Source: an uncultured Candidatus Saccharibacteria bacterium (GTDB lineage Bacteria; Patescibacteriota; Minisyncoccia; Phycocordibacterales; JACOZG01). From it: a stretch of 64,000 nucleotides of DNA. Every line of letters starts with the position of its first letter. Position 1 is the first letter of the stretch. The translations under genes and the position numbers were made by a program. Of the stretch, positions 1-61,881 are shown in pieces. The DNA lies in NCBI GenBank assembly GCA_965230925.1, contig OZ246403.1, positions 266,455 to 330,454 on the forward strand, read 5' to 3'. Below the pieces are notes generated by a model. It ran no database searches, was not told the origin of the DNA, and saw only the letters and a list, made by a program, of their open reading frames with translations.

Positions 1-811
1 CGTCAAGACCCTCACTCTTTTTCTTAGTCAGATCAATGTCGGTAGATCCAACCACCTCAGCCAAAAAGTACTTCACCTGTTTCCGAATTTTCCCCTTCTC
101 GGGGTCAGAAGCAATATACTCGTTTGAGCCAAGCGGTGCAATAACCTTAATCTCGAGCGACATTTCTTCTTTAATCTCCCGACAAGCACCCTCTTCTGCC
201 TTCTCGCTTGCGTCTACGTGACCCTTCGAGAGCGTCCAGTAACCGAAGATATCGTGCACCAGCGCCAATTTAATATCCTTACCAAACTTGGCATACACCA
301 CCGCGCCACAAAGGGTCTCAATGGGCATCTCATCATAGGGCACATCTTTCGGTCGACGCTTCTTGGCGGGCACATCGTCCTTACCTGGTTCACCAATTTC
401 GCGGTAAACAGTGCCAAGCACACCATTCACAAACTTGCCGCTATTCTCGCCGCCGAAAGTCTTCGCCACTTCAATGGCTTCATTAATAGCCACCTTGGCC
501 GGCACCTCGCCACGATCGGCAAACAAGAGTTCATAGAGACCAATCCGGAGCACATTGCGGTCCACAGCCGCAATAAGATCAATCGGCCAGTCCGGAGCGG
601 CCTTCTCAATAATTTCGTCGAGCTGGGGCTTGTGATCAATCACCCCGTCTACGAGACGTTCAATAAAAGATGAATCCTCGAGGCCGGGAGCAAATTCTTC
701 AATATTTGCTTGAATAATCTCCGGCAATTTCTGCCGATTACTTGCATCAGTTACGTCCCATTCAAACAAGGACTGCATTGCAATGCTGCGTGATAAATGT
801 CGATTAGCCAT
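1..811 (-). CDS. nusB: NusB (transcription antitermination factor) fused to a C-terminal NUDIX hydrolase domain; 3' end runs off the window
   Basis: Manual reverse-strand translation from the ATG at 811 gives an open frame of 270 codons with no stop. Residues 1-145 are NusB-like (LRIGLYELLF, AINEAIEVAK). Residues about 180-240 carry a NUDIX box: GHVDASEKAEEGACREIKEEMSL fits Gx5Ex7REUxEExGU. The ORF is absent from the track only because it has no stop inside the window. Confidence 0.7.
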   Translation of the reverse strand, partial: MANRHLSRSIAMQSLFEWDVTDASNRQKLPEIIQANIEEFAPGLEDSSFIERLVDGVIDHKPQLDEIIEKAAPDWPIDLIAAVDRNVLRIGLYELLFADRGEVPAKVAINEAIEVAKTFGGENSGKFVNGVLGTVYREIGEPGKDDVPAKKRRPKDVPYDEMPIETLCGAVVYAKFGKDIKLALVHDIFGYWTLSKGHVDASEKAEEGACREIKEEMSLEIKVIAPLGSNEYIASDPEKGKIRKQVKYFLAEVVGSTDIDLTKKKSEGLD

Positions 812-871: not shown

Positions 872-1108
872 TTAGCGAGCGGCTGGCTGACTAGCGGCGC
901 TTTTCTTGCGCTTGTCTTCAGCCTTCTTGGCCTTAGCCACCATGTCGAAGACCTGCCGGCCACGATAGAAGCCGCAGGTTAAGCAGGCCCGGTGGCGCAA
1001 GTGAGCCGCGCCACAATTAGCGCATTTCGAAAGGCGCGGCCCAGTGAGCGCGTGGTGCGACCGGCGATTGCCGGTGTGCGCCCGAGTATGTCGCATCCGA
1101 ATTACCAT
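872..1108 (-). CDS. rpmF: 50S ribosomal protein L32
   Basis: 78 aa. RRSHHALT motif plus a C-x2-C ... C-x2-C zinc ribbon (CANCGAAHLRHRACLTCGFYRGRQV) typical of bL32. Confidence 0.85.
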   Translation of the reverse strand: MVIRMRHTRAHTGNRRSHHALTGPRLSKCANCGAAHLRHRACLTCGFYRGRQVFDMVAKAKKAEDKRKKSAASQPAAR

Positions 1109-1135: not shown

Positions 1136-3421
1136 TTATTCGGCAAGCCCCGTCCGAGAGTTATCATGATGGAAGGTCGGCCAGGAGCCAGGACTATTAA
1201 AGTTACCGCCAAAATCAAACACCCTCAATTCAGACCCTTGAACACTGCCATCATAAGACTTAATGTGTAGCAAATCAGACTGGCCGTCGCGCTGAAGATC
1301 AGCGATGGTCGCAGGCATGGACTTAATTCCTTGACGATTCCATTCTGGATGGAGCCCTATTGGCATCCCCGGCAGAAGACTTAAGTCGCTTCTATAAATA
1401 TATATATCGTCACCCGTTGGAATCGTCCCATCATTCTCTCCTTCCACTGCATAAACTAACTCCAAATCACCTCCGGGTTCTATATCATCGATGAGCCAGT
1501 TCCATGGTTCATGAGAGTGAAGGTGTTCCATAATAACTGGAGGATGAGCTACTCCAGAGGACTCATAGATAAAAGTGAGACCGGTACCAGCATTAAAAGA
1601 ACAAATGAAAATAATTTCTGTGGTGCCGTTATGATCCAAGTCTGCTGCCGATGGGCTATGAATCCAATTATCGCCAATGCAATACTCATCATAGTTAGTG
1701 TGAACATAGGGTCTCTGTGGCCAACCCGCAAGATCGGCACTATCTGGCTCTAACACATTAATAACAGCACGGTGAAAATTGAGGCCGAAGGGTGGATCAT
1801 AGTTTTCATGGCCAATAAACATTACATTGAGAGAGCCGTTATTATCGAAATCACCAAGAACCGGTGATTGGCGACTTAATTCTGGTGAAGCATATGCTTT
1901 GGGCCACCCGGGCAACTCTGAAGCATCCTGATAATGAACCGCGTGGAGTCTGGTGGTGGGAAGCTCTGATGTTTCTGGGGGAGCAAAAAACGCTTCGCCC
2001 AAATTAAACACAATTTCTACCTCACCATCACCATCTAGGTCACCGATCGCTGGACTGCCAGCTAAATTATGAGACAAAACACCGTCGGACCCGTCGATTG
2101 CAGCTGATTTTATAATAGGATAGTGGGAATTAAACAACTCACCATTAAGTCGGAAAACGAACAGCTTCGCTTCGTCCACCTGATTGGCATTTCTCCCAAA
2201 CCCTTTAGTAATTAATTCTTTCGTTCCATCATGATCAAGATCATAAGCCAGAACCGCAGGGATTGTCCCTGGTTGACTACCCAAGTCTCGCCCACCATTC
2301 GGCCAAAAACTGGCCAGAGTACCATCATAATTTAAAACCAATAACCGATTACTGAAATCGCTTCCACTCGTAATTTGAATAATGGGCAGAAGTTCTAATA
2401 ATCCATCATTATTAAGATCAGCGATACTCATAGGAGTAACTCTGGTTGACGAAACAATCCCACTACTCCCCCCAGAAACTCCACTTCGTGCTACTAAATC
2501 TACCGGGAAATTAGGTAAATCATTACCACTGGAATCAAGACCATAAAGACGACCGTTAATACCTAAGGCAAAGATCTCTGAGTGACCATTACCATCTACA
2601 TCAGCCACCGTTGGGCCCCAAATACGGACTCCAGGGAATTGTCGAACAAAATCTTCGGAAATTGAAACATTGGTAGGAGTAATGTTAATCGAGGTTGTTT
2701 CCACATCAACACCACCACAATTGTCGGTAACTGTGAGAGTCACATCATAATTGCCTAGAGAAGCATAGGTATGAGTGGCGGTAGCACCAGTGCCCGTGGT
2801 ACCGTCACCAAAATTCCAAGCGTAATTAGTAATATTGCCGTCAGTATCATCTGATTCTGAGGCGTCGAAACGTTGAGGATAATTTACACTACCAGCCGTT
2901 GGTCCAAAGAAATCAGTGGTTGGCAAAACATTGTTTGAACAGGGATCAAGCGCAACCACATTAAGATGAATCTGGAAATTAGCGGCTGCTCCACAATTGT
3001 CGGTCACAGTAAGGGTGATTGTCTTGTTTCCGGTGGTGGTATAGCTGTGCACGGCTGTGGAGCCAGAACCGTTACTACCATCTCCAAAATTCCAAGAATA
3101 GGTGGTGATAGAACCACCCTGATCGGAAGAACCAAGGGCGTTGAAGAGAACGGGGGTATTAACAGTCACCTGTCCCGCTGGCTCAGAGAAAGCCAGTGGC
3201 ACTGGAGGGGTGTTGTTTGCACAGGGTGCAGGGTTGGTGGTCCACTCAAGCAATGGTTCGGTGTTTCTTGGCACCGCCACTGGTGTTCCTTTACCAGGTG
3301 ACACCAGGGCTAGAAAACCGTCTGGTAAAATCGAAGAAGAAAGAAGATAACTGACATAGAAAATCACGATAAAAAACAAAATAAGTTTCAATAACCGAGG
3401 GGGAAATTCTGGTTGGGCCAT
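1136..3421 (-). CDS. Large secreted/cell-surface protein with tandem PKD domains and FG-GAP/VCBS (integrin-alpha-like beta-propeller) repeats
   Basis: 761 aa with an N-terminal TM/signal segment. Two PKD-like units are present (TITLTVTDNCGAAANF, YDVTLTVTDNCGGVD). Seven or more D-x-[DN]-x-[DN]-G repeats follow (DVDGNGHSEIF, ADLNNDGLLELL, YDLDHDGTKELI, GDLDGDGEVEIVF, GDFDNNGSLNVMF, ADLDHNGTTEIIF, ADLQRDGQSDLL). Confidence 0.75.
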   Translation of the reverse strand: MAQPEFPPRLLKLILFFIVIFYVSYLLSSSILPDGFLALVSPGKGTPVAVPRNTEPLLEWTTNPAPCANNTPPVPLAFSEPAGQVTVNTPVLFNALGSSDQGGSITTYSWNFGDGSNGSGSTAVHSYTTTGNKTITLTVTDNCGAAANFQIHLNVVALDPCSNNVLPTTDFFGPTAGSVNYPQRFDASESDDTDGNITNYAWNFGDGTTGTGATATHTYASLGNYDVTLTVTDNCGGVDVETTSINITPTNVSISEDFVRQFPGVRIWGPTVADVDGNGHSEIFALGINGRLYGLDSSGNDLPNFPVDLVARSGVSGGSSGIVSSTRVTPMSIADLNNDGLLELLPIIQITSGSDFSNRLLVLNYDGTLASFWPNGGRDLGSQPGTIPAVLAYDLDHDGTKELITKGFGRNANQVDEAKLFVFRLNGELFNSHYPIIKSAAIDGSDGVLSHNLAGSPAIGDLDGDGEVEIVFNLGEAFFAPPETSELPTTRLHAVHYQDASELPGWPKAYASPELSRQSPVLGDFDNNGSLNVMFIGHENYDPPFGLNFHRAVINVLEPDSADLAGWPQRPYVHTNYDEYCIGDNWIHSPSAADLDHNGTTEIIFICSFNAGTGLTFIYESSGVAHPPVIMEHLHSHEPWNWLIDDIEPGGDLELVYAVEGENDGTIPTGDDIYIYRSDLSLLPGMPIGLHPEWNRQGIKSMPATIADLQRDGQSDLLHIKSYDGSVQGSELRVFDFGGNFNSPGSWPTFHHDNSRTGLAE

Positions 3422-3431
3422 TTTATTAAAA

Positions 3432-6400
3432 TTAATTAAAATTCGGCAAGCTGGTGAGGCGCTGAATCAAGAGGATCAGGAGGTGCACAATAACAAGCAA
3501 CCTTTGACGCATCGTGGCTAAAATACCGGTTTGAGGAATGAGCTCGAAGGGAATGATGACGGTTTTCCCTTGATAGAGCTGATTCAATTTGGCGCGGGTG
3601 CTTGGACCAGCGAGGCCAAAACCCTCGCCGCCAGGACCAGTAATAGAATTTTCCAGTTGGAATCGCTTCACCGCCTCAGCCGTAGCCACATCATACCGAC
3701 GAGTGAAAGCACCGAGATAATATCCATTCACCGAGAGCATGTATTGCAGAATTTCTACCTGATCTCCCTCGCTAATACCGATGGCGAACGGACCAGTGAC
3801 CGCAGGCAAAACATAGCTCTGTCCAGCCGGCATGGTGGCCGCACCAGTATCAAGCGCCACCGTCGGTCGGCCATAAATATCGTACCCTGGGGTACCCTCA
3901 AGATCGCCACCAATACCACCGCGACTTCCTCCCCCACCACCCCCTCCGCCGCCGCCTCCACCAGAAGAACCACCGCCATCATCCTCATCTGCGGGAGTAT
4001 CGTCAGTTGGATCATCGTCTGAAGAGTCGGCTTCAAAGAAGTCTATAAGCGCTCGGTATCTGGGCGCGTCGGCTTCTGTTTGGCCAAGGTGCTCGAGAGC
4101 TCCCCAAGAACCAAATTCATTTGGCGTTCTAACATAAAGATAATGAGAGAAAACGCCACCGGTTATCTCGAACCAAGAATTAAGATAATCAACATAAATA
4201 TCGTACATTCGATCGTCACGATTGGCGGCTAGCAATTTAGCAGTTAAAGTTGAGTTATTGGTATTGCTACCTGTGGCCACCAGAGATTGACCTCCTTCGT
4301 AAGAAATAAGTGGTAAATTGTAAGCATCAGCAACAGTTTTATTGGCCTCCATTCGCGCCACCGCTTGGGGTAAATAAGTGTCTTCTAATTCATCGAGAAT
4401 GGTGTCCGTTGTGGCAGAATTCACTTGATTGTTGGTTACCAAGTCATCGGCAAGACCATTGCCAAAGTAAGGCGCGATCGCCACCGCATCAGCCTCAACT
4501 TCAGCCGAATTAATTCCCGACTCACTAAAGGCCGATAAAATATCGCTCAAAACCTGAGAACTCCCCGCTTGACCAGCAAGAACATTAATCACCCGATTGC
4601 TCTCATTGCCAAACTCAGTTTCAAAAATTTCAAAAATTTCGGCTGATCGCTTGGCATAAAACCTTCTGCGAGCGGCAGTGGCGCTACCGGAAAGCCCTTG
4701 AGCCAAACCTTCGGTCTCGGCATAGTCGTATTGGGTAAATTGCGGATTCCACACTTCATTGGAGTACTCCACATAAACTTCAAGCTGTGGGTCAAGATTA
4801 TCTTTAATCAGGCTCGCTAACTCCTGAACGTAATCATCATCTGCCAAGTGAGGAATGGTAAACCAAGGATCGATGTTAAGTTCATTGGCGAGCATAATGC
4901 TGTATTCGGGAGCGGGACCCTGACTCCGCGCTTGAGTGACATGATTAAGAGTGGTTCGCTCATCCCAGGTAGACATAAGTTGACCATTAGTACGGATCCA
5001 GTTCATCAAACGCAAAGCGGAAAAACCTTCGAGCTTAGTTAAGAAAGGTGGATAAAATGGCTCAGTGGCATAAGTACTCTCATAACCTGGCATAATGACT
5101 CGAATATTACTTACTGGATCCGCCACATCAGAACGCGTGATCGACAAACGAATGCCATTACTCGAAGGACTAGAAACAGTGAATTGATGCGTCCCGGTAC
5201 CGCCAGCTTGATCGAAGGTGCCAGAAGCATCGCGGCCCATTGTAATTTCACCATCACCTTCAAACATAAGAGTATAAGTGCCGCTCGGATACGTGCCAGA
5301 ACTCACATCGAGCATTACCGCCGACACAATTTGCGGTTGAGCAACTCCGTTGTCGTAAGGAATCTCAAGCGGATAGCCGAGACTGTCGGTCGGAACTGTC
5401 ACCCCACTCGAACTAAAGCTTCCAACATTACTTGCCACCCAAGGATTACTCCCACTTGAACCAGCTTGTTTGAACACATCGACGAAAACAATTTGGGTAT
5501 TGGAACTACGAATGGCATCGAGATTAATACCAATGGGACCGCCAGTGGGTACCGGATCGGGATCAACTACTGGCGCGGCACTTACTGTAATAGTTAAAGT
5601 GTCACTCGCGGAAAGAGCTCCATCGCTCACCAAAAGATTTAAAACATAAGTACCGGCCGTTGAGAAAGTGACGGTGGTACTCAAAGCGCTCGCATTGCTA
5701 AAAGTTACAGACGCGGGACCACTTACCGTACTCCAGGTATAGGTGAGAGTGTCGCTTGGAAGATCATCGTCAGTGGCGCTACCGCTTAAGCTCGCCGTGC
5801 TCGGGAGAGTAATGGCCTGATCACTGCCAGCATTCACACTCGGCGCTTGGTTAACCGGATCAGGATCAGCTTCCACATAGGCAAATTCCATTGCCCCGGC
5901 ATCGCAATCGGTACTTGGCCGAAGATTGCCGAACATGTCGCGCGGCACGGAGTCATGACAGACACCAATATCGGTACCGGGAGCCGAGCCACTTGAAAGA
6001 GCAAATTCATCGAGATTGGTGTAGGGCCAAGATCCCGTCCAAGGATTAGTCGATGTTTTTAAATTACACGAACCCGGACCGGTCGAGGAGCCACAGAATG
6101 TCATACCCGGAAAAGTGGTAGGGAATACGCCTGAACCATCGGCGTCATAGTAAAGATTATTATCAACTCTAATATCAGTAGCCTCGGTAACGGCTCCTTG
6201 TGTGCCCCAGAAACCGTGACTAGAACCGGTGTTTGCACCAACCACAAAGCTATTGTTGTAAACCCGCCAATGATCGGGCTCGTGGTAACTCGCATTACCG
6301 CTCTGCTCCGTACTACATTCCTCTATTCCAATTGCCGTGGCACTACTCGAGTTCTGGCCGTAACGCGTGCCGTCAAAAACATTGTTAGAAATTAATAAAC

Positions 6401-9008
6401 CCTGGACTTTGGTGTGAAGCGTCATGCGAACAGTAGAATTGGCCCGGGCCGAAGTGTCTGAAGAAAACACATTGCCTGTCATGCGATCATAGCGATGCCA
6501 CTCTTTAACCTTATCAACACCACAGTCGGTGGCGGTGAAGCCAACCATGGCGGTCTGAGTGTATTTACAAGCTGAAACATAGTTATCGACAAACATCTCA
6601 TCTTGGCTCGGGAAATCGCCAGCCGCATCAATGTTCAAACCATTTCTCATTGAGAGAATTCCCCCACCGCGCGAACCAATAGAAGCGGTACCCGATTCAT
6701 ATTCATGACCACAACCGATAACTTCAGCCGCCACACCAAGCGGATCGGCACCAGGATTCAAGAGTCCCCAATCATTGTGGGCCATGTAACCCTTGTCGGT
6801 ATATTTGAACCGGCCATTGAAACTGCTACCGTAATTACCATTTGTTTGTACGGTCCCAGCTAAGTCATCGCCGCTCATTGAGCCAGCCATGGCAAAGTAC
6901 TTCACCGTAGTGTAAATATTGGCGAGACCAGAGAGATTGGGTTGAGCACCCGGGCCGTATTGCGCCGCACTATCAATGAAGGCAATTTGATTATGGACAT
7001 CACCGGCGTCGAGATCGCAGGACGGGAAATTGTTGCAGTGCATATAGAGCGCCACGTCGAAGCGGTTAATATCGACGCGAAGCCACAAAGCGCGGTTGAT
7101 GACGGTGGTATTACTCGAATTGAAGGCCACCCCCGAACCATTATTTGCCACATCCGTTTTCCCTTGAACCGTCAGGTCGACAAACTGGAAATCGGAAGTG
7201 TTATCGGTGAAATTAATGAAATTGTTGTTTGGCGAAGCAGATGTGTCGAGCCAAATTGGTTTAGCACCCGAACCGTAAGCGCCAAAATATTTAGAACCGC
7301 TCGGGATCGTGATTGCACTCGCTGAAGCATAACTCTCACCACGTTGGAAAAGACAACGCTTGGCACCCGTGCAATGCGTAATAATCGCTTGCGAGAGCGG
7401 GCTGGCGCCGGTGGCCTGAACTACAGTTGCTCCTGCCGGGCAACCAGTGGTCACGCCAGCAACCGGAACAGTTGTAGTGTAAACACAAACCGTATTTGTG
7501 CCCGACCAATTACTATCGGCGCTCGTGACGGTAATTTGCGCCGTCGCCGTGGAGCCGTTCACATCGAGAGTGGCAGTATAAACTCCCGGCGTCTCGTAAA
7601 CGTGGAAGCCAACGACGCCAGTATCCGTGTCGCTATTCTTAGACGGTGCGTCGCCATTGCGATACAAAGCACCGCGCGACCAAGTACCAGCGCCGGTATC
7701 GCCGTAATCGTAGTTGTAATCGAGAAAGAGTCGCTCATCAGTGGTGCCCAAATTACTATCAGTCGTACCCGAAGCATCGAACCAGATGGCGCACGGCGCT
7801 ACGCAAGAGGTGCGAGTAGGCACAAGAGAAGGTGTTACCACTCCACTCACCGGTTCTACTTCAACCGCGCCGCCGGCATCCGGTGTCCAAGAGAAGTCCA
7901 CACCCTCGAGCGCGCCACCGGCGTCAATCGTCGCGCGATAAATCATTGTGCTACCACCCAAGCAGCTTGAAGAACTATCAGTACCGCCATCGCTAAGGTC
8001 ACACCAGGTAGAACCATCATCGGTACTATATTCTAGATCCACGGAACCGCCGGGCGTATCATCCCAACTCGTCGTAATATCAGTGAAAGCCCCTGTTGAA
8101 ATATCAGCGGACTCAAAAGTCCCGCTCGCCGCGCCACTACCGTCAACCACCGCACTGGCGAGCGCCGTAATTTCTCCATCAGAAAGAATTCGATCCCAAA
8201 TCGCCACCTCGTCAATCAAACCATTAAAATTGTGCTCACTCGCATTACTTCTGGCGCCAATGAAAGTCTGCGCCGCGAGAGAAGAACCAGTCGGAGCTGA
8301 AGTGGCCGCATCCGTGCCACACTCTGATCCATTAATGAAAGCGCGCGCCGTGGTACCACTAATGGTATATCCGACCTGAGTCCAAGTGTTGAGCGGCACC
8401 GCGGTTGAACAGGTGATGAGTACGCCATAATCATTTTCTACCCTGAACTGGCCGGTGTCATTGATCTGCAAACGGAGAATCTCGTCGGTCCCACCACTCG
8501 TGATAGAGCCGTGAATAATGCTGTAGCGACTGGCTGCCGCTGGCGTACCAGCGCGATTAATCCAAGCCGAAACCGTAAGCGTAGAAACACTGCTCACGCT
8601 AAGGGTCGGCAGCGTAATAGAGTCCCCAGTACCGTCGAGGGTGCAAGCTTGGCTAAATTGGCCGCCCGAAGAACAAGAAGCATCTCCATTCAGCGTACCA
8701 TTAGCGCTTCCCGCACTATCATTAGCATTGCCATCCATGTGCCACAGCATCACTGGTCCACCCGAGCCGCCACTTGCTTCAATTGCGCTTGAGCTATCCC
8801 AAGCCACATTGCTAAAACTCGCCTGATCAACGTAATCGAGGTCATCAAAATCGTCGAAGAAAGTGTCCACACCGAGATCAGCCGGCGCGGCGAGCTGGCC
8901 GCCCTGCTGACTCAACTGGCTAATCTCAGAAAAACCAGACCACAGCCCAATAATGAGAAAGAGAAAAGTGACAACAGCAATTAACTTCAGATGATGAATC
9001 TTGTCCAC
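3432..9008 (-). CDS. Giant (1858 aa) multidomain surface protein: N-terminal TM anchor, LamG/concanavalin-like lectin domain, parallel beta-helix (pectate-lyase-like) region, Ig/cadherin-like domain, TIM-barrel glycoside-hydrolase-like domain, poly-Gly linker, C-terminal peptidoglycan-binding domain (PG_binding_1-like)
   Basis: Uninterrupted 5.6-kb ORF. The LamG-like segment is TLSAWINRAG...LRLQINDTGQFRV...NGLIDEVAIWDR. NNVFDG-type beta-helix rungs follow. The Ig-like segment is SDTLTYTWSTVSGPASVTF...TYVLNLLVSDGAL. The GH-like segment is EVYVEYSNEVWNPQF. A G16 run is present. The C-terminal GDQVEILQYMLSVNGYY...AVKRFQ matches the PG_binding_1 pattern. Confidence 0.8.
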   Translation of the reverse strand: MDKIHHLKLIAVVTFLFLIIGLWSGFSEISQLSQQGGQLAAPADLGVDTFFDDFDDLDYVDQASFSNVAWDSSSAIEASGGSGGPVMLWHMDGNANDSAGSANGTLNGDASCSSGGQFSQACTLDGTGDSITLPTLSVSSVSTLTVSAWINRAGTPAAASRYSIIHGSITSGGTDEILRLQINDTGQFRVENDYGVLITCSTAVPLNTWTQVGYTISGTTARAFINGSECGTDAATSAPTGSSLAAQTFIGARSNASEHNFNGLIDEVAIWDRILSDGEITALASAVVDGSGAASGTFESADISTGAFTDITTSWDDTPGGSVDLEYSTDDGSTWCDLSDGGTDSSSSCLGGSTMIYRATIDAGGALEGVDFSWTPDAGGAVEVEPVSGVVTPSLVPTRTSCVAPCAIWFDASGTTDSNLGTTDERLFLDYNYDYGDTGAGTWSRGALYRNGDAPSKNSDTDTGVVGFHVYETPGVYTATLDVNGSTATAQITVTSADSNWSGTNTVCVYTTTVPVAGVTTGCPAGATVVQATGASPLSQAIITHCTGAKRCLFQRGESYASASAITIPSGSKYFGAYGSGAKPIWLDTSASPNNNFINFTDNTSDFQFVDLTVQGKTDVANNGSGVAFNSSNTTVINRALWLRVDINRFDVALYMHCNNFPSCDLDAGDVHNQIAFIDSAAQYGPGAQPNLSGLANIYTTVKYFAMAGSMSGDDLAGTVQTNGNYGSSFNGRFKYTDKGYMAHNDWGLLNPGADPLGVAAEVIGCGHEYESGTASIGSRGGGILSMRNGLNIDAAGDFPSQDEMFVDNYVSACKYTQTAMVGFTATDCGVDKVKEWHRYDRMTGNVFSSDTSARANSTVRMTLHTKVQGLLISNNVFDGTRYGQNSSSATAIGIEECSTEQSGNASYHEPDHWRVYNNSFVVGANTGSSHGFWGTQGAVTEATDIRVDNNLYYDADGSGVFPTTFPGMTFCGSSTGPGSCNLKTSTNPWTGSWPYTNLDEFALSSGSAPGTDIGVCHDSVPRDMFGNLRPSTDCDAGAMEFAYVEADPDPVNQAPSVNAGSDQAITLPSTASLSGSATDDDLPSDTLTYTWSTVSGPASVTFSNASALSTTVTFSTAGTYVLNLLVSDGALSASDTLTITVSAAPVVDPDPVPTGGPIGINLDAIRSSNTQIVFVDVFKQAGSSGSNPWVASNVGSFSSSGVTVPTDSLGYPLEIPYDNGVAQPQIVSAVMLDVSSGTYPSGTYTLMFEGDGEITMGRDASGTFDQAGGTGTHQFTVSSPSSNGIRLSITRSDVADPVSNIRVIMPGYESTYATEPFYPPFLTKLEGFSALRLMNWIRTNGQLMSTWDERTTLNHVTQARSQGPAPEYSIMLANELNIDPWFTIPHLADDDYVQELASLIKDNLDPQLEVYVEYSNEVWNPQFTQYDYAETEGLAQGLSGSATAARRRFYAKRSAEIFEIFETEFGNESNRVINVLAGQAGSSQVLSDILSAFSESGINSAEVEADAVAIAPYFGNGLADDLVTNNQVNSATTDTILDELEDTYLPQAVARMEANKTVADAYNLPLISYEGGQSLVATGSNTNNSTLTAKLLAANRDDRMYDIYVDYLNSWFEITGGVFSHYLYVRTPNEFGSWGALEHLGQTEADAPRYRALIDFFEADSSDDDPTDDTPADEDDGGGSSGGGGGGGGGGGGSRGGIGGDLEGTPGYDIYGRPTVALDTGAATMPAGQSYVLPAVTGPFAIGISEGDQVEILQYMLSVNGYYLGAFTRRYDVATAEAVKRFQLENSITGPGGEGFGLAGPSTRAKLNQLYQGKTVIIPFELIPQTGILATMRQRLLVIVHLLILLIQRLTSLPNFN

Positions 9009-9017
9009 GCTTTTTCT

Positions 9018-9659
9018 TTATTGTAGCCCAATAAATGAGCGACAAAAAGTCCGCCGGTGGATAAGGGAAAGGCCGTGGGTCACAATCGCCCGGCGATGCG
9101 CGATGGTACCGTAACCTTTGTGAATTTCAAAACCATAATTGGGATATTTTTTAGCAATTCGAACCATGTGGCGATCGCGCGTAACCTTAGCCACAATCGA
9201 TGCCAGCGCAATAATCGGCTCGCTTTCGTCACCGCGAATAATCGTTTTTTGATTAAGAAATTCTTCTGGCGCTTTTAAACTCCCATCAAGTAGCACCTTG
9301 CATTCACTGGGTTGGACTTTTAATTTAATTAAGCATCGCTCGATCCCAATTTTAATCGCCACACTAATCCCCTTTTTATCAATCACCTGATGGCTCACTA
9401 GACTTACCGCAAAATCGAGCTCTCCGGTCTTTTTTGCCTCTTTAATTTTAGTAAACCAAGCTTCCCTTTGAGTTTCAGTCAATTGCTTAGAATCTTTCAT
9501 CTTGGCCCGTTTTTTAGAGATCCTGGTGACAACCACCCCCACCGCCACCGGTCCAGCCAAGGGTCCCCGCCCAGCTTCATCAATACCAATTAAATACCTA
9601 AATTTCTTTCCTTTGCTATAATCCGATCGATGTTTGTTCATCTGCATAATCACAGCCAT
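9018..9659 (-). CDS. rnhB: Ribonuclease HII
   Basis: GIDEAGRGPLAGPVAVGVVV catalytic motif. The start is ambiguous: Met codons at 9659, 9647 and 9641. The gene is divergent from dnaE and overlaps its start. Confidence 0.85.
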   Translation of the reverse strand: MAVIMQMNKHRSDYSKGKKFRYLIGIDEAGRGPLAGPVAVGVVVTRISKKRAKMKDSKQLTETQREAWFTKIKEAKKTGELDFAVSLVSHQVIDKKGISVAIKIGIERCLIKLKVQPSECKVLLDGSLKAPEEFLNQKTIIRGDESEPIIALASIVAKVTRDRHMVRIAKKYPNYGFEIHKGYGTIAHRRAIVTHGLSLIHRRTFCRSFIGLQ

Positions 9660-12600
9660 TATAGCCTCCTTGACGGCTTGGCCAAGATTGATGATTTGGT
9701 TGATCGGGCTAAAGAGTTGGGGTTGCCTGCCCTAGCTCTCACCGATCACGGCAATTTGTACGGCGCGATTGAGTTTTATAAAAAGTGTTTAAGCGCTGGT
9801 ATTAAACCCATTGTCGGTGTAGAAGCCTATGTCGCGACCCGCTCGCGCTTCGACAAAGAACCTAATATCGACAGCAAACGCTTTCACCTTACTTTGCTCG
9901 CCAAGAATGCCGAGGGTTATAAAAATTTAGTTAAACTCATCACGAAGGCCAACCTCGAGGGTTATTACTACAAACCGCGCATTGATAAAGAGTTAATGCG
10001 AGCACACCACGAGGGGGTTATTTGCCTTTCGGGTTGCATGGCCAGTGAACTGTCTCGCGCTATTCTCGCTAGGAATTATGAGGAAGCGAAAAAGATTGCT
10101 AGTGAGTATCGCGAAATTTTTGGCCCAGAAAATTATTTTATTGAAATTTTTCATCACCCCAAAATTGAACGCTATCCCGAACTTAAAGAACAAGCAATAA
10201 AGTTGGCTCACGAATTAGGAATTCCCCTCGTTGCTACTCAAGATGCCCATTATTTAGCACCAGATGATACGAAAGCTCACGACACGCTTGTGGCGATTGG
10301 TACCAACACCGATGCCGATGATAATAAGCGTTACACCAAAGCTGGTGATGACTTCTCGCTGGTTGATGAAGCGACAATGCGCGAACACTTCCAAGACGCG
10401 CCGGAAGCCGTGGATAATACCTTAAAAATTGCCGAGGCTTGTGATCTCAAACTCGAGCTCGGCAAATGGGTGTTCCCGAAATTTCAGCTCACGCTTGCCG
10501 AGACGCCAGAAGAGGAATTGCGAAAGTTTGCCTACAATCGCTTGCCCGAGTATCTCGAGCGCAATCCCGAGCGCACCGACGAGGCCAAAAAACGTTTAGA
10601 TTATGAACTCGAAGTTATTATTAATAAGGGTTATGCGCCCTATTTTCTGGTGGTGGCCGATATCTTCAACTTCACTCGAGCGAACGGCATCTTTACCAAC
10701 ACTCGAGGCTCGGCGGCGGGTTGCTTCACCTCTCATATTATTGGCATCTCGGCGGTTGATCCGCTCTATTATAATCTCCCCTTCGAGCGCTTCTTGAACC
10801 CCGATCGCCCGAGCCCGCCCGATATCGATATGGACTTTGCCGATCGTCGTCGCGACGAAGTCATTGATTATGTGAAGCGTAAATATGGCGAGGATCATGT
10901 GGCGCAGATTGGTACCTTCGGCTCGATGATGGCGAAAGGCGCGGTGCGTGATGTGGCGCGAGCGCTCGGTCATCCTTATGCCGTTGGAGATAAAATTTCA
11001 AACTTAATCCCGATGGGTTCGCAGGGCTTCCCGATGACGATTGATCATGCGCTCGAAATTACGCCGGAACTTAAAACGCTTTACGATACCGACACTACGA
11101 CGAAAGAAATTATTGATCTGGCTAAAAAAATTGAAGGCAATGCCCGGCACATTTCCGTTCACGCGGCGGGTGTCGTTATTTCTCCCACACCACTCACCGA
11201 TTTCGTTCCCCTTCAATTTGACCCGAAGGGCGGCAAGATTATTACCCAGTACGATATGTACGTGGTCGAGGAAGCCGGGCTTCTCAAATTCGACTTTCTC
11301 GGTATTCGCAACCTCTCGATTATTGAAGGCGCGATTAGAATTATTGAGAAAACCCGCGGCGAGAAAATTGATATTGAGAACATTCCCCTTGATGACAAAA
11401 AAACTTTTGCCATGCTCACCGCTGGCCACACCATCGCCCTCTTCCAACTCAATGGCACGGGTATGACACGGGCCCTGAAAGAACTCAAACCCACGCGCGT
11501 GGAAGATATTAACGTGATGGTGGCCCTCTATCGCCCGGGGCCGATGGATAACATTTATGAGTACATTGCACGCAAGCACGGCAAGAAGCCGACCAAATTT
11601 CTCCATCCGAAGATGAAAAGTTACCTCGCGCCAACCTTCGGCGTGCTGGTTTATCAAGACGATCTCCTGATGACTGCCATCGAGGTGGCCGGTTATACCT
11701 GGGGCGAGGTGGATAAATTCCGTAAGGCCGTGGGTAAAAAAATTCCGGAAGAAATGAAGAAACAACACGTGATGTTCGTGGAGGGTTGCATCAAGCACAC
11801 TGGCTTGACCAAAGAAAAAGCGGAAGAAATTTGGAATCTCTTTGAACCCTTCCAAGGCTACGGCTTCAACAAGGCGCATGCGGCCAGTTATGGTCGCGTG
11901 GCCTATCAAACGGCGTATCTCAAAGCCAATTATCCGGGAGAATATATGACCGCGGCGCTCTCGGCGGAAAGTGGAAATATTGAAACGATTGCCGAAATTA
12001 TTGGCGAGTGCAAAGTGCTCGGGATTCCCGTTTTGCCACCCGATATTAATGAGAGCTTCAGCGACTTCACGGTCATCAAGGGAAAAGACGGTGACATTGA
12101 TCGCATTCGTTTCGGCTTGGTGACCATTAAAAACTTGGGCGCCGAGATTGCTGAGGTGTTGGTGCAAGAGCGGAAAGCGCGAGGACCCTTCAAAAGCTTT
12201 AGTAATTTGCTCGAGCGTGTCACTCATCGGAATTTAAATAAAAAGTCGCTTGAGGCTTTGATAAAAACGGGGGCGATGGATCGCTTCGGCGAGCGCGGGA
12301 CCCTGCTCGCGAACTTAGACGCCGCACTCGAATATAATCGTGAGCGCGGCAAACTGGGCCAGAGTCAAGACTCACTTTTCTCAACCATGAGTGATCAAAC
12401 GAGCGTCCCCGACTTTAAACTTAAACCGGCACCCGACGTTTCGGCCAAAGAAAAGTTGGTGTGGGAAAAAGATTTGCTCGGCCTCTACGTGTCTGGCCAT
12501 CCGCTTGATGAGTTCCGCGAGAAAATTGAAGCGACCGGCCGCTCGATTACTAAAACAAAAACGTTCAAAGATGGCACGGCAACCGTTGTGGCGGGCGTCT

Positions 12601-12824
12601 TAGAAGAAATTAAATTAATTAATACCAAGAAGGGTGACCGGATGTGCTTCGCCAAACTCACCGACTTCAGCGACTCCATTGAGCTCGTGATCTTCTCGCG
12701 CACCTTCGGCGAATGTCGCGAGCTTCTCGAAGCCGAAAAATGCGTCGCCATCAAAGGCAAACTCTCCCTAAGGAACGGCGAACCAAGCTTGGTCGTGGAA
12801 GGAATGAAGGAGTTGACGAGCTAA
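9630..12824 (+). CDS. dnaE: DNA polymerase III alpha subunit (short form, 1064 aa)
   Basis: N-terminal PHP domain (HLHNHSHYSLLDG), polymerase core, and a C-terminal OB fold. Confidence 0.9.
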   Translation: MFVHLHNHSHYSLLDGLAKIDDLVDRAKELGLPALALTDHGNLYGAIEFYKKCLSAGIKPIVGVEAYVATRSRFDKEPNIDSKRFHLTLLAKNAEGYKNLVKLITKANLEGYYYKPRIDKELMRAHHEGVICLSGCMASELSRAILARNYEEAKKIASEYREIFGPENYFIEIFHHPKIERYPELKEQAIKLAHELGIPLVATQDAHYLAPDDTKAHDTLVAIGTNTDADDNKRYTKAGDDFSLVDEATMREHFQDAPEAVDNTLKIAEACDLKLELGKWVFPKFQLTLAETPEEELRKFAYNRLPEYLERNPERTDEAKKRLDYELEVIINKGYAPYFLVVADIFNFTRANGIFTNTRGSAAGCFTSHIIGISAVDPLYYNLPFERFLNPDRPSPPDIDMDFADRRRDEVIDYVKRKYGEDHVAQIGTFGSMMAKGAVRDVARALGHPYAVGDKISNLIPMGSQGFPMTIDHALEITPELKTLYDTDTTTKEIIDLAKKIEGNARHISVHAAGVVISPTPLTDFVPLQFDPKGGKIITQYDMYVVEEAGLLKFDFLGIRNLSIIEGAIRIIEKTRGEKIDIENIPLDDKKTFAMLTAGHTIALFQLNGTGMTRALKELKPTRVEDINVMVALYRPGPMDNIYEYIARKHGKKPTKFLHPKMKSYLAPTFGVLVYQDDLLMTAIEVAGYTWGEVDKFRKAVGKKIPEEMKKQHVMFVEGCIKHTGLTKEKAEEIWNLFEPFQGYGFNKAHAASYGRVAYQTAYLKANYPGEYMTAALSAESGNIETIAEIIGECKVLGIPVLPPDINESFSDFTVIKGKDGDIDRIRFGLVTIKNLGAEIAEVLVQERKARGPFKSFSNLLERVTHRNLNKKSLEALIKTGAMDRFGERGTLLANLDAALEYNRERGKLGQSQDSLFSTMSDQTSVPDFKLKPAPDVSAKEKLVWEKDLLGLYVSGHPLDEFREKIEATGRSITKTKTFKDGTATVVAGVLEEIKLINTKKGDRMCFAKLTDFSDSIELVIFSRTFGECRELLEAEKCVAIKGKLSLRNGEPSLVVEGMKELTS

Positions 12825-58424: not shown

Positions 58425-58546
58425 CCTCTGTTCCGGCGGCTAGCTACTCTCCCCCTGATGGAGTACCATCGCCACGACGGTGCTTAACGGCTCTGTTCGG
58501 AATGGTAAGAGGTGTGACCACCGCGTCGAACCACCGAAACACAAGA
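58425..58546 (-). rRNA. rrf: 5S ribosomal RNA
   Basis: Reverse complement contains CCGAACAGAGCCGTTAAGCACCGTCGTGGCGATGGTACTCCATCAGGGGGAGAGTAGC. Length is about 120 nt. Confidence 0.85.
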
Positions 58547-58604
58547 TTCAAATACTAATTCTCACGAATAGAAACGAACACTAACAAACAATCAAAAAGT
58601 GCTT

Positions 58605-61610
<3,006 letters not shown>

Positions 61611-61726
61611 GAAATCTAAAAACCACTTTGTTTGATTGCTTTACCTACCTGTCTCCAACTCTTGAAAGACCCACAATAAAGTGGAAGTTGGGACAGCTTT
61701 TAGTTTTCAAATTTCGATCCTCTCTG

Positions 61727-61752
61727 AAAGAAAAACCGCCCTTCGGGGCGGC
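61727..61752 (-). terminator. Hairpin + U-tract (terminator-like or rRNA-leader boxB-like element) upstream of 23S
   Basis: Minus strand: GCCGCCC-CGAA-GGGCGG followed by TTTTTCTTTC. Confidence 0.4.
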
Positions 61753-61825
61753 TTAGATACCCAAAAAAATGGCTATCTAGGCCGCTCTTTTAGTTGGTTT
61801 TTGGTATTCATATCCGATGGGCAAC

Positions 61826-61853
61826 AGTATATAGGAACCAAAAAAGCCGTCAA
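61826..61853 (-). promoter_or_regulatory. Putative promoter (TTGACG-16-TATACT) upstream of the hairpin and the 23S gene
   Basis: Minus-strand reading: cTTGACGgcttttttggttcctaTATACTg. Confidence 0.35.
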
Positions 61854-61881
61854 GCAGGGTGGGGAAAGCCAAGATTCCGAC

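What the first reader, a model, noticed from the sequence alone, without database searches (positions are those of the whole stretch)
1..811. NusB fused in-frame to a NUDIX hydrolase
The ORF that begins at 811 on the minus strand encodes a complete NusB fold followed without a stop by a domain with a canonical NUDIX box (GHVDASEKAEEGACREIKEEM). I am not aware of NusB-Nudix as a common architecture. A NUDIX domain (RppH-like RNA 5'-pyrophosphohydrolase or nucleotide sanitiser) tethered to the antitermination/rRNA transcription factor would couple 5'-end processing or nucleotide hydrolysis to the transcription elongation complex. The 3' end is cut by the window edge.
Basis: seen in the sequence. 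Interest (0 to 1): 0.55.

Follow-up and report, generated by a model that had tools for sequence, protein, structure and literature searches.

The report
NusB fused to a Nudix domain
This is a real gene in which the rRNA-transcription factor NusB carries a built-in Ap4A-hydrolase-type Nudix domain; it is the standard, unstudied form of NusB in a large group of ultra-small (CPR/Paceibacteria) bacteria, and many relatives have lost the enzyme's catalytic residue while keeping the domain.

Summary
Window 1-811 (minus strand) holds the first 270 of 302 codons of one gene. It has a NusB domain that passes the curated NusB cut-off, a 24-residue linker, and a Nudix domain with an intact Nudix box. 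It is not a frameshift artefact: all 80 species-level genomes retrieved carry the same single ORF. In nearly all of them the gene order is rpmF, nusB::nudix, rnc (RNase III), smc. They are Patescibacteria/Paceibacteria.

So the architecture is common in that lineage and visible in databases, where it is named only "NusB". I found no paper describing it.

The Nudix domain is closest to diadenosine-polyphosphate hydrolases (Aquifex Ap4A hydrolase, Thermus Ndx1, Chlamydia CT771, human NUDT2). It is not RppH, whose curated cut-off it fails.

One result was unexpected. The window's clade keeps all catalytic residues, but 49 of 81 species have a degenerate Nudix box. The most frequent change is loss of the Glu equivalent to NUDT2 E58. 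The rest of the domain stays strongly conserved in those species.

Best reading: a NusB-tethered polyphosphate-ligand module, probably catalytic here, possibly acting on the 5' end of nascent pre-rRNA. The substrate is inferred, not shown. Interest is moderate.

The parts
1..811 (-). Partial CDS of nusB::nudix, codons 1-270 of 302. The start is the ATG at 811. The last 32 codons lie beyond the window edge.
   Evidence: Open frame. 100% identical to the 302-aa P0001. Pfam NusB plus NUDIX.
395..811 (-). NusB domain, residues 1-139, all-helical
   Evidence: PF01029 at 125 bits. TIGR01951 nusB equivalog at 129 bits against a cut-off of 88.35. PDB NusB chains match at E 1e-20 to 1e-15. The AlphaFold model has seven helices with pLDDT mostly above 90.
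323..394 (-). Linker, residues 140-163 (GEPGKDDVPAKKRRPKDVPYDEMP). It contains a GEPGK motif and a central Lys/Arg run.
   Evidence: pLDDT is below 50 at residues 144-148. G140, E141, P142 and K144 are at least 95% conserved across 81 species. Linker length varies from 13 to 35 residues.
2..322 (-). Nudix domain, residues 164-270 of 164-302, truncated by the window edge
   Evidence: PF00293. Best PDB sequence matches are Ap6A/Ap4A hydrolases. Foldseek match to 3i7u has target-normalised TM 0.90 and rmsd 1.7 A.
155..223 (-). Nudix box, residues 197-219 (GHVDASEKAEEGACREIKEEMSL). G197, E203, R211, E212, E215 and E216 are all present. The E212 codon is nt 176-178.
   Evidence: Read directly from the sequence. 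It is the only Nudix-box match among the window's ORFs. These residues are 92-100% conserved in the 120 closest relatives.
872..1108 (-). rpmF (ribosomal protein L32), immediately upstream in the same orientation; first gene of the conserved rpmF-nusB::nudix-rnc-smc cluster
   Evidence: PF01783 at 64.4 bits. An L32 homologue lies upstream of the fusion in 81 of the 83 loci compared: the 80 genome loci plus three contigs carrying this same gene.

Best explanation
The ORF is the Paceibacterial (CPR) form of the transcription antitermination factor NusB. A canonical NusB domain is joined by a short flexible linker to an Ap(n)A-hydrolase-type Nudix domain. The gene is expressed from a conserved rpmF-nusB::nudix-rnc-smc cluster.

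Proposed mechanism.
(1) Inferred from family membership: the NusB part pairs with S10 and binds boxA on the leader of nascent rRNA, anchoring that leader to RNA polymerase as in the E. coli rRNA antitermination complex.
(2) Inferred: the tethered Nudix domain is thereby held next to the 5' end of the same transcript. It binds that end's polyphosphate group, either a 5'-triphosphate or an Np4 cap.
(3) Inferred from the intact box: in lineages such as this window's, it hydrolyses that group to a 5'-monophosphate. This would prepare the leader for removal together with RNase III, which is encoded by the next gene.
(4) Shown by comparison: in most other species the key catalytic Glu has been replaced while the rest of the domain is conserved. 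The shared, selected property of the domain is therefore ligand or partner binding, with hydrolysis an extra kept in some clades.

The fusion being real and conserved is near certain (about 0.97). The RNA 5'-end substrate is the weakest step, and the confidence given for this explanation (0.42) refers to the mechanism as a whole.
For: Real and conserved:
- A 100%-identical 302-aa protein exists, and the 120 best clusters all carry both Pfam domains.
- 80 of 80 species-representative genomes have both domains in one ORF.
- rpmF lies upstream and rnc downstream wherever the contig extends far enough, with one exception (L081). In this genome rnc starts 6 nt after the stop codon.

Bona fide NusB: TIGR01951 scores 129 bits against a cut-off of 88.

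Nudix subtype:
- Best PDB sequence matches are Thermus Ndx1 Ap6A hydrolase (8e-10), CT771 (1.4e-9), C. elegans Ap4A hydrolase (7e-7), Aquifex Ap4A hydrolase (2e-6) and NUDT2 (2.5e-4).
- Foldseek's top hits are the same proteins plus M. tuberculosis Rv2985.
- NUDT2, a member of that subtype, converts PPP-RNA to P-RNA. Its E58A mutant is inactive (PMC8616924).
- Np4 caps exist on bacterial RNA and are removed by a Nudix enzyme (PMC8833179 and PMC7044304).

Catalytic residues are kept in this clade: G197 100%, E203 97%, R211 97%, E212 97%, E215 92.5%, E216 100% of 120 sequences.

Binding side is conserved everywhere: K196 in 81 of 81 species, and W192, T193, Y232, P237, G240, K241 and K244 at 95% or more even in box-degenerate members.

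The boxA-NusB anchoring model and RNase III cleavage of leader-trailer helices come from PMC10250234.
Against: - No substrate or activity was tested.
- The Nudix domain fails every curated equivalog cut-off, including RppH (26 against 118 bits).
- The domain is acidic (mean pI 5.2, net charge about -7), which does not suggest an extended RNA-binding surface.
- 49 of 81 species have a degenerate box, and E212 is kept in only 40 of 81. 5'-end hydrolysis therefore cannot be the conserved function of the family.
- The AlphaFold model gives no confident inter-domain geometry (pTM 0.53 against pLDDT 92).
- The rnc-smc adjacency is common in bacteria (from memory), so part of the synteny may carry little information.
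- Whether these genomes have another NusB, RppH or ApaH elsewhere could not be checked.
Confidence: 0.42

Rival explanations
1. Non-catalytic accessory or sensor subunit. The Nudix domain is mainly a binding module that became a fixed part of the antitermination complex. It could be a structural subunit, as the inositol monophosphatase SuhB is in E. coli. It could instead be a nucleotide effector domain that tunes NusB activity, as the Nudix domain of NrtR tunes a DNA-binding domain. In this view, hydrolysis in the window's clade is residual or serves only to turn over the bound signal (Ap4A, other NpnN or ppGpp).
For: - E212, the Glu whose NUDT2 equivalent gives a dead enzyme when mutated, is replaced in 41 of 81 species. 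This needs at least about 15 independent changes on a neighbour-joining tree.
- Only 8 of 46 divergent fusion representatives keep the full box, against 75 of 100 Nudix-only relatives.
- The domain nevertheless stays conserved in degenerate members: 54% mean pairwise identity against 60% in intact ones, and the same invariant non-catalytic positions.
- Precedents: the NrtR Nudix-like effector domain (PMC2330246) and SuhB as an rrnTAC subunit (PMC6614801).
- Foldseek also hits the NrtR Nudix domain 3gz8.
Against: - The window's own clade keeps every catalytic residue at 92-100% over 120 sequences, which points to selection for catalysis there.
- No ligand or partner has been identified.
- That SuhB's enzyme activity is dispensable is recalled from memory and was not verified here (one search found no statement on it).
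Confidence: 0.27
2. Housekeeping free-nucleotide hydrolase fused for convenience. The domain is an ordinary Ap4A/Ap(n)A (or oxidised-NTP) pyrophosphatase that cleans the nucleotide pool. It was fused to nusB by loss of a stop codon between neighbouring genes in a streamlined genome. The only gain is co-expression, with no action on RNA or on the transcription complex.
For: - All the nearest characterised relatives are dinucleoside-polyphosphate hydrolases.
- The same Nudix subtype is fused promiscuously to unrelated domains: GNAT, DnaA_C/sigma70_r4, DUF4298 and tandem Nudix.
- Free-standing relatives of 140-150 aa and about 40% identity exist in unrelated gene contexts.
- The domain is acidic.
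Against: - A pool-cleaning enzyme should not tolerate repeated loss of its catalytic Glu while the domain stays under purifying selection.
- The fusion and its synteny with rnc are maintained in 80 of 80 species.
- The apparently split close homologues all turned out to be broken copies, not separate genes.
- No unfused nusB followed by a separate Nudix gene was found as an intermediate stage.
Confidence: 0.24
3. Artefact: a sequencing frameshift, lost stop codon or chimeric assembly joined two separate genes.
For: Some database entries do show the two halves as separate genes.
Against: - Those split entries are themselves the errors or pseudogenes. One has an in-frame TAA at the Tyr136 codon, and three have frameshifts inside otherwise conserved sequence. 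One of those assemblies also has a fragmented smc gene.
- 80 independent species genomes and at least 120 protein clusters have the uninterrupted roughly 300-aa ORF.
Confidence: 0.01

Closest known systems
NusB (transcription antitermination factor; TIGR01951 / PF01029)
   Same: The N-terminal 139 residues form a full-length NusB domain that passes the curated equivalog cut-off. They share the VAINEAIELAK-FGGENSGKFVNGVL core with E. coli, Thermotoga and Aquifex NusB. NCBI and JGI already name these proteins NusB.
   Different: It carries a C-terminal Nudix domain of about 140 residues that no characterised NusB has. Binding to S10 and boxA was not tested.
Nudix dinucleoside-polyphosphate hydrolases: Aquifex Ap4A hydrolase (3i7u), Thermus Ndx1 Ap6A hydrolase (1vc8), Chlamydia CT771 (4mpo), C. 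elegans Ap4A hydrolase (1ktg), human NUDT2 (3u53), M. tuberculosis Rv2985/MutT1
   Same: These are the best sequence and fold matches: E 8e-10 to 2.5e-4, target-normalised TM up to 0.90, rmsd 1.7 A. They share the W-T-x-x-K-G-H motif before the box, the K-G-K...K-x-V-x-Y-[FW]-L-A motif after it, and the C-terminal helix. NUDT2 also dephosphorylates PPP-RNA.
   Different: Identity is only 24-28%. Here the domain is fused to NusB, and in most orthologues the box is degenerate. Activity is unknown.
RppH (bacterial RNA 5'-pyrophosphohydrolase)
   Same: Same superfamily. RppH also removes Np4 caps (PMC8833179).
   Different: It fails the RppH equivalog models (26.4 and 22.1 bits against cut-offs of 118 and 116). 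PDB matches to B. subtilis RppH (E 0.003) and E. coli RppH (E 0.3) are much weaker than matches to Ap(n)A hydrolases.
RsmB/Sun 16S rRNA m5C methyltransferase
   Same: The only well-known architecture in which a NusB-like N-terminal domain is fused to an enzyme that acts on rRNA. It is a precedent for a NusB fold serving as the RNA-targeting module.
   Different: The catalytic domain is different (a methyltransferase). Here the RsmB models score far below their cut-offs (65.8 against 319 bits), while the true NusB model passes.
NrtR (Nudix-related transcriptional regulators) and SuhB in the rRNA antitermination complex
   Same: Both are enzyme folds recruited to transcription control as effector-binding or structural parts. 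NrtR carries a Nudix-like effector domain (PMC2330246). SuhB is a phosphatase-fold subunit of the NusB/E-boxA complex (PMC6614801). Recurrent loss of E212 in the fusion family fits this pattern.
   Different: There is no winged-helix DNA-binding domain and no homology to SuhB. The window's protein keeps a complete catalytic box. This is an analogy only.
Dcp2 (eukaryotic mRNA decapping enzyme)
   Same: Its architecture is a helical N-terminal regulatory domain followed by a Nudix catalytic domain acting on RNA 5' ends. Foldseek aligns more than 250 columns.
   Different: At rmsd 13-17 A, only the domain order and the Nudix fold match. The helical domains are unrelated.

Membership tests
NusB | Full-length match to the curated NusB models above their cut-offs | tested here: met
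   TIGR01951 scores 129.2 bits against a cut-off of 88.35. PF01029 scores 125 bits against 23.1 and covers profile positions 3-133 of 133.
NusB | All-helical NusB fold | tested here: met
   The AlphaFold model has seven helices over residues 2-139 with pLDDT mostly above 90. PDB NusB chains match at E 1e-20 to 1e-15.
NusB | Heterodimer with S10 (NusE) and binding of boxA RNA | not testable with these tools
   This needs biochemistry or a complex model. Only candidate boxA-like sequences were seen in the 23S leader.
NusB | It is the genome's only NusB, i.e. the housekeeping copy rather than a paralogue | tested here: inconclusive
   There is no second NusB in the 64-kb window. The rest of the roughly 716-kb contig could not be read.
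Nudix hydrolase superfamily | PF00293 above its cut-off, plus the Nudix box GX5EX7REUXEEXGU | tested here: met
   50.9 bits against a cut-off of 21.1 on the full-length protein. The box GHVDASEKAEEGACREIKEEMSL has all six key residues.
Nudix hydrolase superfamily | Catalytic box conserved across orthologues | tested here: not met
   The box is intact in the window's clade. Only 32 of 81 species keep all six residues, and E212 is kept in 40 of 81.
Ap4A/Ap(n)A hydrolase subgroup (NUDT2-like) | Closest sequence and structural similarity is to characterised Ap(n)A hydrolases | tested here: met
   The top phmmer and Foldseek hits are Ndx1, CT771, Aquifex and C. elegans Ap4A hydrolases, and NUDT2.
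Ap4A/Ap(n)A hydrolase subgroup (NUDT2-like) | Hydrolysis of dinucleoside polyphosphates | not testable with these tools
   This requires an enzyme assay.
RppH | Match to the curated RppH equivalog models above their cut-offs | tested here: not met
   NF001936 scores 26.4 against 118, NF001938 scores 22.1 against 116, and NF001934 scores 18.9 against 241.
RppH | Conversion of 5'-ppp or 5'-pp RNA to 5'-p RNA | not testable with these tools
   This requires an enzyme assay. The related enzyme NUDT2 has this activity (PMC8616924).
RsmB | NusB-like N-terminal domain plus a C-terminal m5C methyltransferase domain | tested here: not met
   RsmB models match only the NusB part and score far below their cut-offs (65.8 against 319 bits). 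No methyltransferase domain is present.
NrtR | Nudix-like domain plus a C-terminal winged-helix DNA-binding domain | tested here: not met
   Pfam finds only the NusB and NUDIX domains. The resemblance is functional analogy only.

The most novel reading that the evidence does not exclude
In Paceibacteria the rRNA antitermination complex carries a built-in 5'-end module. The NusB-tethered Nudix domain would capture the triphosphate or Np4-capped 5' end of the nascent pre-rRNA that NusB already holds through boxA. In some lineages it decaps that end co-transcriptionally. In others it has repeatedly become a pseudoenzyme that only holds or senses the end. This would be the first antitermination factor with an intrinsic RNA 5'-end enzyme or reader, and a natural series of active and inactive forms in which to study it.
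Probability: 0.25. Interest if true: 0.72.

Novelty: new variant of a known kind. Interest (0 to 1): 0.5.

Why it matters
NusB is a core, near-universal factor for rRNA transcription, and the CPR/Patescibacteria are a large, poorly understood part of bacterial diversity with reduced genomes. In one of their major classes, every NusB recovered in the 80 species genomes retrieved carries an Ap4A-hydrolase-type Nudix domain. The gene sits immediately before RNase III. This suggests that these organisms link rRNA transcription to 5'-end chemistry or to nucleotide-alarmone signalling in a way not seen in model bacteria.

The mix of intact and degenerate catalytic boxes among otherwise conserved orthologues gives a ready-made comparison of catalytic and non-catalytic roles. 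The protein is small and soluble-looking, so it can be tested in vitro without culturing the organism.

If the domain turns out to be only a pool-cleaning enzyme, the finding reduces to an annotation fix: these proteins should be named bifunctional rather than just NusB.

Tried and rejected
(1) Frameshift or assembly artefact. Rejected: 80 of 80 species genomes have one ORF.

(2) Naturally split nusB and nudix genes as evidence of fission or of a pre-fusion stage. Four apparent cases were read base by base (L088, L091, L092, L093). They are an in-frame TAA at the Tyr136 codon and three frameshifts within conserved sequence. One assembly also has a fragmented smc. Another case, P0133, is a contig-edge fragment.

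(3) Met162 as a retained internal start codon. It aligns with Met1 of free-standing relatives and is 98% Met in close relatives. Across 81 species it is Met in only 43 and Leu in 30. Dropped.

(4) "The linker is the most conserved part". This holds for the 120 close relatives (72% identity) but not across species (about 50% identity, length 13-35). Only GEPGK and a Lys run persist.

(5) Free-standing relatives lying next to nusB. The P0187 and P0182 contexts are unrelated to nusB.

(6) Basic surface as a hint of RNA binding. The domain is acidic, so this gives no support.

(7) Cluster names for divergent fusions, to widen the taxonomy. Almost none carry a name.

(8) A second database search with the Nudix part alone, to size the family. 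It returned only 335 candidates, mostly fragments, and missed the full-length proteins, so it gives no usable count.

(9) Literature searches for NusB plus Nudix, Patescibacteria or CPR. Nothing relevant was found.

(10) A statement that SuhB's enzyme activity is dispensable. It was not found in PMC6614801 and is kept only as memory.

Full report
**Observation**

On the minus strand an ORF starts at the ATG at 811 (MANRHLSRS...) and stays open for 270 codons to the window edge.
- Pfam finds NusB at residues 7-137 (125 bits, cut-off 23.1) and NUDIX at residues 189-255 (37.4 bits, cut-off 21.1).
- NCBIfam's NusB equivalog model TIGR01951 is passed (129 bits against 88.35). The RsmB models hit only the NusB part and fall far below their cut-offs.
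With the next two residues it forms a Nudix box with all six key residues: G197, E203, R211, E212, E215 and E216.

**Full length and reality of the fusion**

A 100%-identical protein of 302 aa (P0001) is in public data on a 716-kb contig, so the window lacks only 32 codons. On the full protein NUDIX scores 50.9 bits.

The 120 best database clusters are all about 300 aa with both Pfam domains. Where they are named, they are called "transcription antitermination factor NusB", from Patescibacteria, Paceibacterota, Nomurabacteria or Vogelbacteria.

A scan of one genome per GTDB species returned its maximum of 80 loci.
- Each locus matches essentially the whole query: residues 1-296 or more, except one locus cut short by a contig end.
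- In each, both domains lie in one uninterrupted ORF.
- Record titles name Kaiser-, Vogel-, Nomura-, Lloyd-, Niyogi- and Zambryskibacteria and Parcubacteria/Paceibacterota.
I treat that label as doubtful.

The architecture is common in this lineage, not rare.

**Context**

- Upstream lies rpmF (L32; PF01783).
- Beyond the window edge, the next gene is RNase III (rnc). It starts 6 nt after the stop codon and is followed by smc.
- tblastn shows rpmF upstream and rnc downstream of the fusion in essentially every locus whose contig extends far enough. smc usually follows.
- The one exception is L081, which has about 1.7 kb downstream without an rnc match.

**What kind of Nudix domain**

By sequence, the best solved relatives are all dinucleoside-polyphosphate hydrolases:

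| Solved structure | E-value |
|---|---|
| Thermus Ndx1 (Ap6A hydrolase) | 8e-10 |
| Chlamydia CT771 | 1.4e-9 |
| C. elegans Ap4A hydrolase | 7e-7 |
| Aquifex Ap4A hydrolase | 2e-6 |
| Human NUDT2 | 2.5e-4 |
| B. subtilis RppH | 0.003 |
| E. coli RppH | 0.3 |

An AlphaFold model built on 120 homologues has mean pLDDT 92 and pTM 0.53, with the linker below 50 at residues 144-148. This describes two well-folded domains with no confident mutual orientation.

Foldseek against the PDB again puts Aquifex Ap4A hydrolase first (target-normalised TM 0.90, rmsd 1.7 A). Next come CT771, Ndx1, M. tuberculosis Rv2985/MutT1, C. elegans Ap4A hydrolase and NUDT2. The Dcp2 hits span both domains but at rmsd 13-17 A, so only the domain order is similar.

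The Nudix part alone fails every NCBIfam equivalog cut-off, including RppH (26 against 118 bits). It is an Ap(n)A-hydrolase-type domain and not a member of the RppH family.

Enzymes of this subtype can still act on RNA. NUDT2 trims PPP-RNA to P-RNA, and its E58A mutant is inactive (PMC8616924). Dinucleoside polyphosphates also become Np4 caps on bacterial RNA, which Nudix enzymes remove (PMC8833179 and PMC7044304).

**The unexpected result**

In the window's close relatives the catalytic residues are 92-100% conserved. Across the 80 species genomes plus the window the picture differs.

| Residue | Kept in (of 81 species) |
|---|---|
| K196 | 81 |
| G197 | 79 |
| E203 | 64 |
| R211 | 66 |
| E212 | 40 |
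| E215 | 67 |
| E216 | 78 |

- Only 32 of 81 species keep all six box residues (K196 sits just before the box).
- E212 is the first Glu of REUXEE. By box arithmetic on the NUDT2 sequence, recalled from memory, it is the equivalent of NUDT2 E58. It is replaced by K, A, V, I, S or G.
- Among more divergent representatives (50%-identity clusters) only 8 of 46 fusions keep the full box, against 75 of 100 Nudix-only relatives.
- On a rough neighbour-joining tree the ancestral state is intact, and at least about 15 changes at E212 are needed.
- The degenerate members still conserve the domain: mean pairwise identity 54% against 60% for intact ones.
- They keep the same non-catalytic positions at 95% or more: V185, H186, D187, F189, G190, W192, T193, L194, K196, G197, N230, Y232, P237, G240, K241, K244, V246, G268, L269, D270, W274, F275, Y286, D288 and P291.

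From memory of the C. elegans Ap4A hydrolase structure, the K before the box and the K-G-K..K cluster contact the polyphosphate chain. I could not verify this here.

My reading is that selection across the family maintains the fold and a binding surface. Catalysis is kept only in some clades, including the window's.

**Checks on apparent exceptions**

Close Nudix-only homologues of about 140 aa looked like split genes. Read base by base, they sit in the same rpmF-nusB-nudix-rnc context and are broken copies.
- L088 has an in-frame TAA at the Tyr136 codon and also a degenerate box.
- L091, L092 and L093 have frameshifts inside conserved sequence. The L093 shift lies in the A-rich lysine run of the linker, and the L091 assembly also has a fragmented smc.

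True free-standing relatives have about 40% identity and sit in unrelated contexts. The same Nudix subtype is also fused to GNAT, DnaA_C/sigma70_r4, DUF4298 and a second Nudix domain.

**Mechanism**

*Shown here:*
- The fusion is real and conserved.
- The NusB part is a bona fide NusB.
- The Nudix part is of the Ap(n)A-hydrolase type.
- The box is intact in this clade.
- The box has been lost repeatedly elsewhere while the domain is retained.
- The operon with rnc is conserved.

*Inferred:* NusB with S10 binds boxA on nascent rRNA and anchors the leader to RNA polymerase. RNase III later cleaves the leader-trailer helix (PMC10250234). A Nudix domain on a linker of 13-35 residues would then sit close to the 5' end of that leader. 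It could bind the polyphosphate group there, and where the box is intact, hydrolyse it.

*Rival readings:*
- The domain senses a free nucleotide or acts as a structural subunit. The analogies are the NrtR effector domain (PMC2330246) and SuhB in the rrnTAC (PMC6614801).
- It is merely a co-expressed Ap4A hydrolase.

The acidic character of the domain (pI about 5.2) and the widespread loss of E212 weigh against a universal RNA-decapping role. The strict retention of the catalytic residues in the window's clade weighs against a purely structural role there.

**Novelty and verdict**

Both domains are known families, and the architecture is visible in databases, but annotation calls it only NusB. 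Three full-text searches found no paper describing it. I class it as a new variant of a known kind, with interest about 0.5.

Its interpretation is partly supported:
- the fusion is real;
- it is not rare;
- the domain is not RppH;
- catalysis is not universal across orthologues.

Noticed in passing
window 58431-61611 (minus strand), leader 61612-61860: A 23S rRNA gene (58612-61611) and a 5S gene (58431-58538) have no 16S gene in the 2.4 kb upstream within the window; protein-sized ORFs lie there instead. The 23S leader has a promoter-like TTGACG-16-TATACT at 61853-61826. It also has a GC-rich hairpin with a T-run at 61754-61733, followed by TTTCTTTCAGAG, and further on TTTGAAAACTAAAAG. Either sequence could be a boxB/boxA-like NusB target. 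Similarity to boxA was judged by eye from memory and not tested.
   Followed up: partly
window 3432-9008 (minus strand): An ORF of 1858 aa has no Pfam family on record (gene table of L001). It has an N-terminal membrane-anchor-like segment and a run of about 20 Gly/Ser residues near the C-terminus. It is probably a giant surface protein typical of CPR bacteria.
   Followed up: no
window 1136-3421 (minus strand): A 761-aa protein with PKD and faint FG-GAP repeats lies directly upstream of rpmF. It is probably another surface protein.
   Followed up: no
L093 about 2990-3010; L091 and L092 near the NusB C-terminus; L088 about 940: Several public assemblies break this gene by a frameshift or an in-frame stop. 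In L093 the shift lies in the A-rich run encoding the lysines of the linker. Sequencing error is the simplest reading. Slippage at the A-run was not examined.
   Followed up: partly
L004-L083 record titles: Roughly half of the 80 genomes carrying this Paceibacteria-type gene are MAGs titled "uncultured Candidatus Saccharibacteria bacterium" (isolate names such as SRPxxxx_co and binchicken). Their gene content and synteny match Parcubacteria/Paceibacteria records, so the label looks generic or wrong.
   Followed up: no
P0153, P0237, P0246, P0221, P0259: The same Nudix subtype occurs in other fusions: tandem Nudix-Nudix, GNAT acetyltransferase-Nudix, sigma70_r4 plus DnaA_C helix-turn-helix-Nudix, and DUF4298-Nudix. 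The helix-turn-helix fusion resembles an NrtR-like regulator with the domain order reversed.
   Followed up: no
L087 6001-6453: A free-standing 150-aa relative of the Nudix domain sits among phage-like genes: integrase, DNA methylase and a faint Phage_rep_O match. This subtype is therefore also carried by a mobile element or prophage.
   Followed up: no
window 9018-9659 (minus strand) and 9630-12824 (plus strand): RNase HII (PF01351) and a roughly 1064-aa ORF that corresponds to the DNA polymerase III alpha gene in L001 are divergently oriented. Their predicted 5' ends overlap by 30 nt, so one of the two start codons is probably mis-assigned by the mechanical ORF listing.
   Followed up: no
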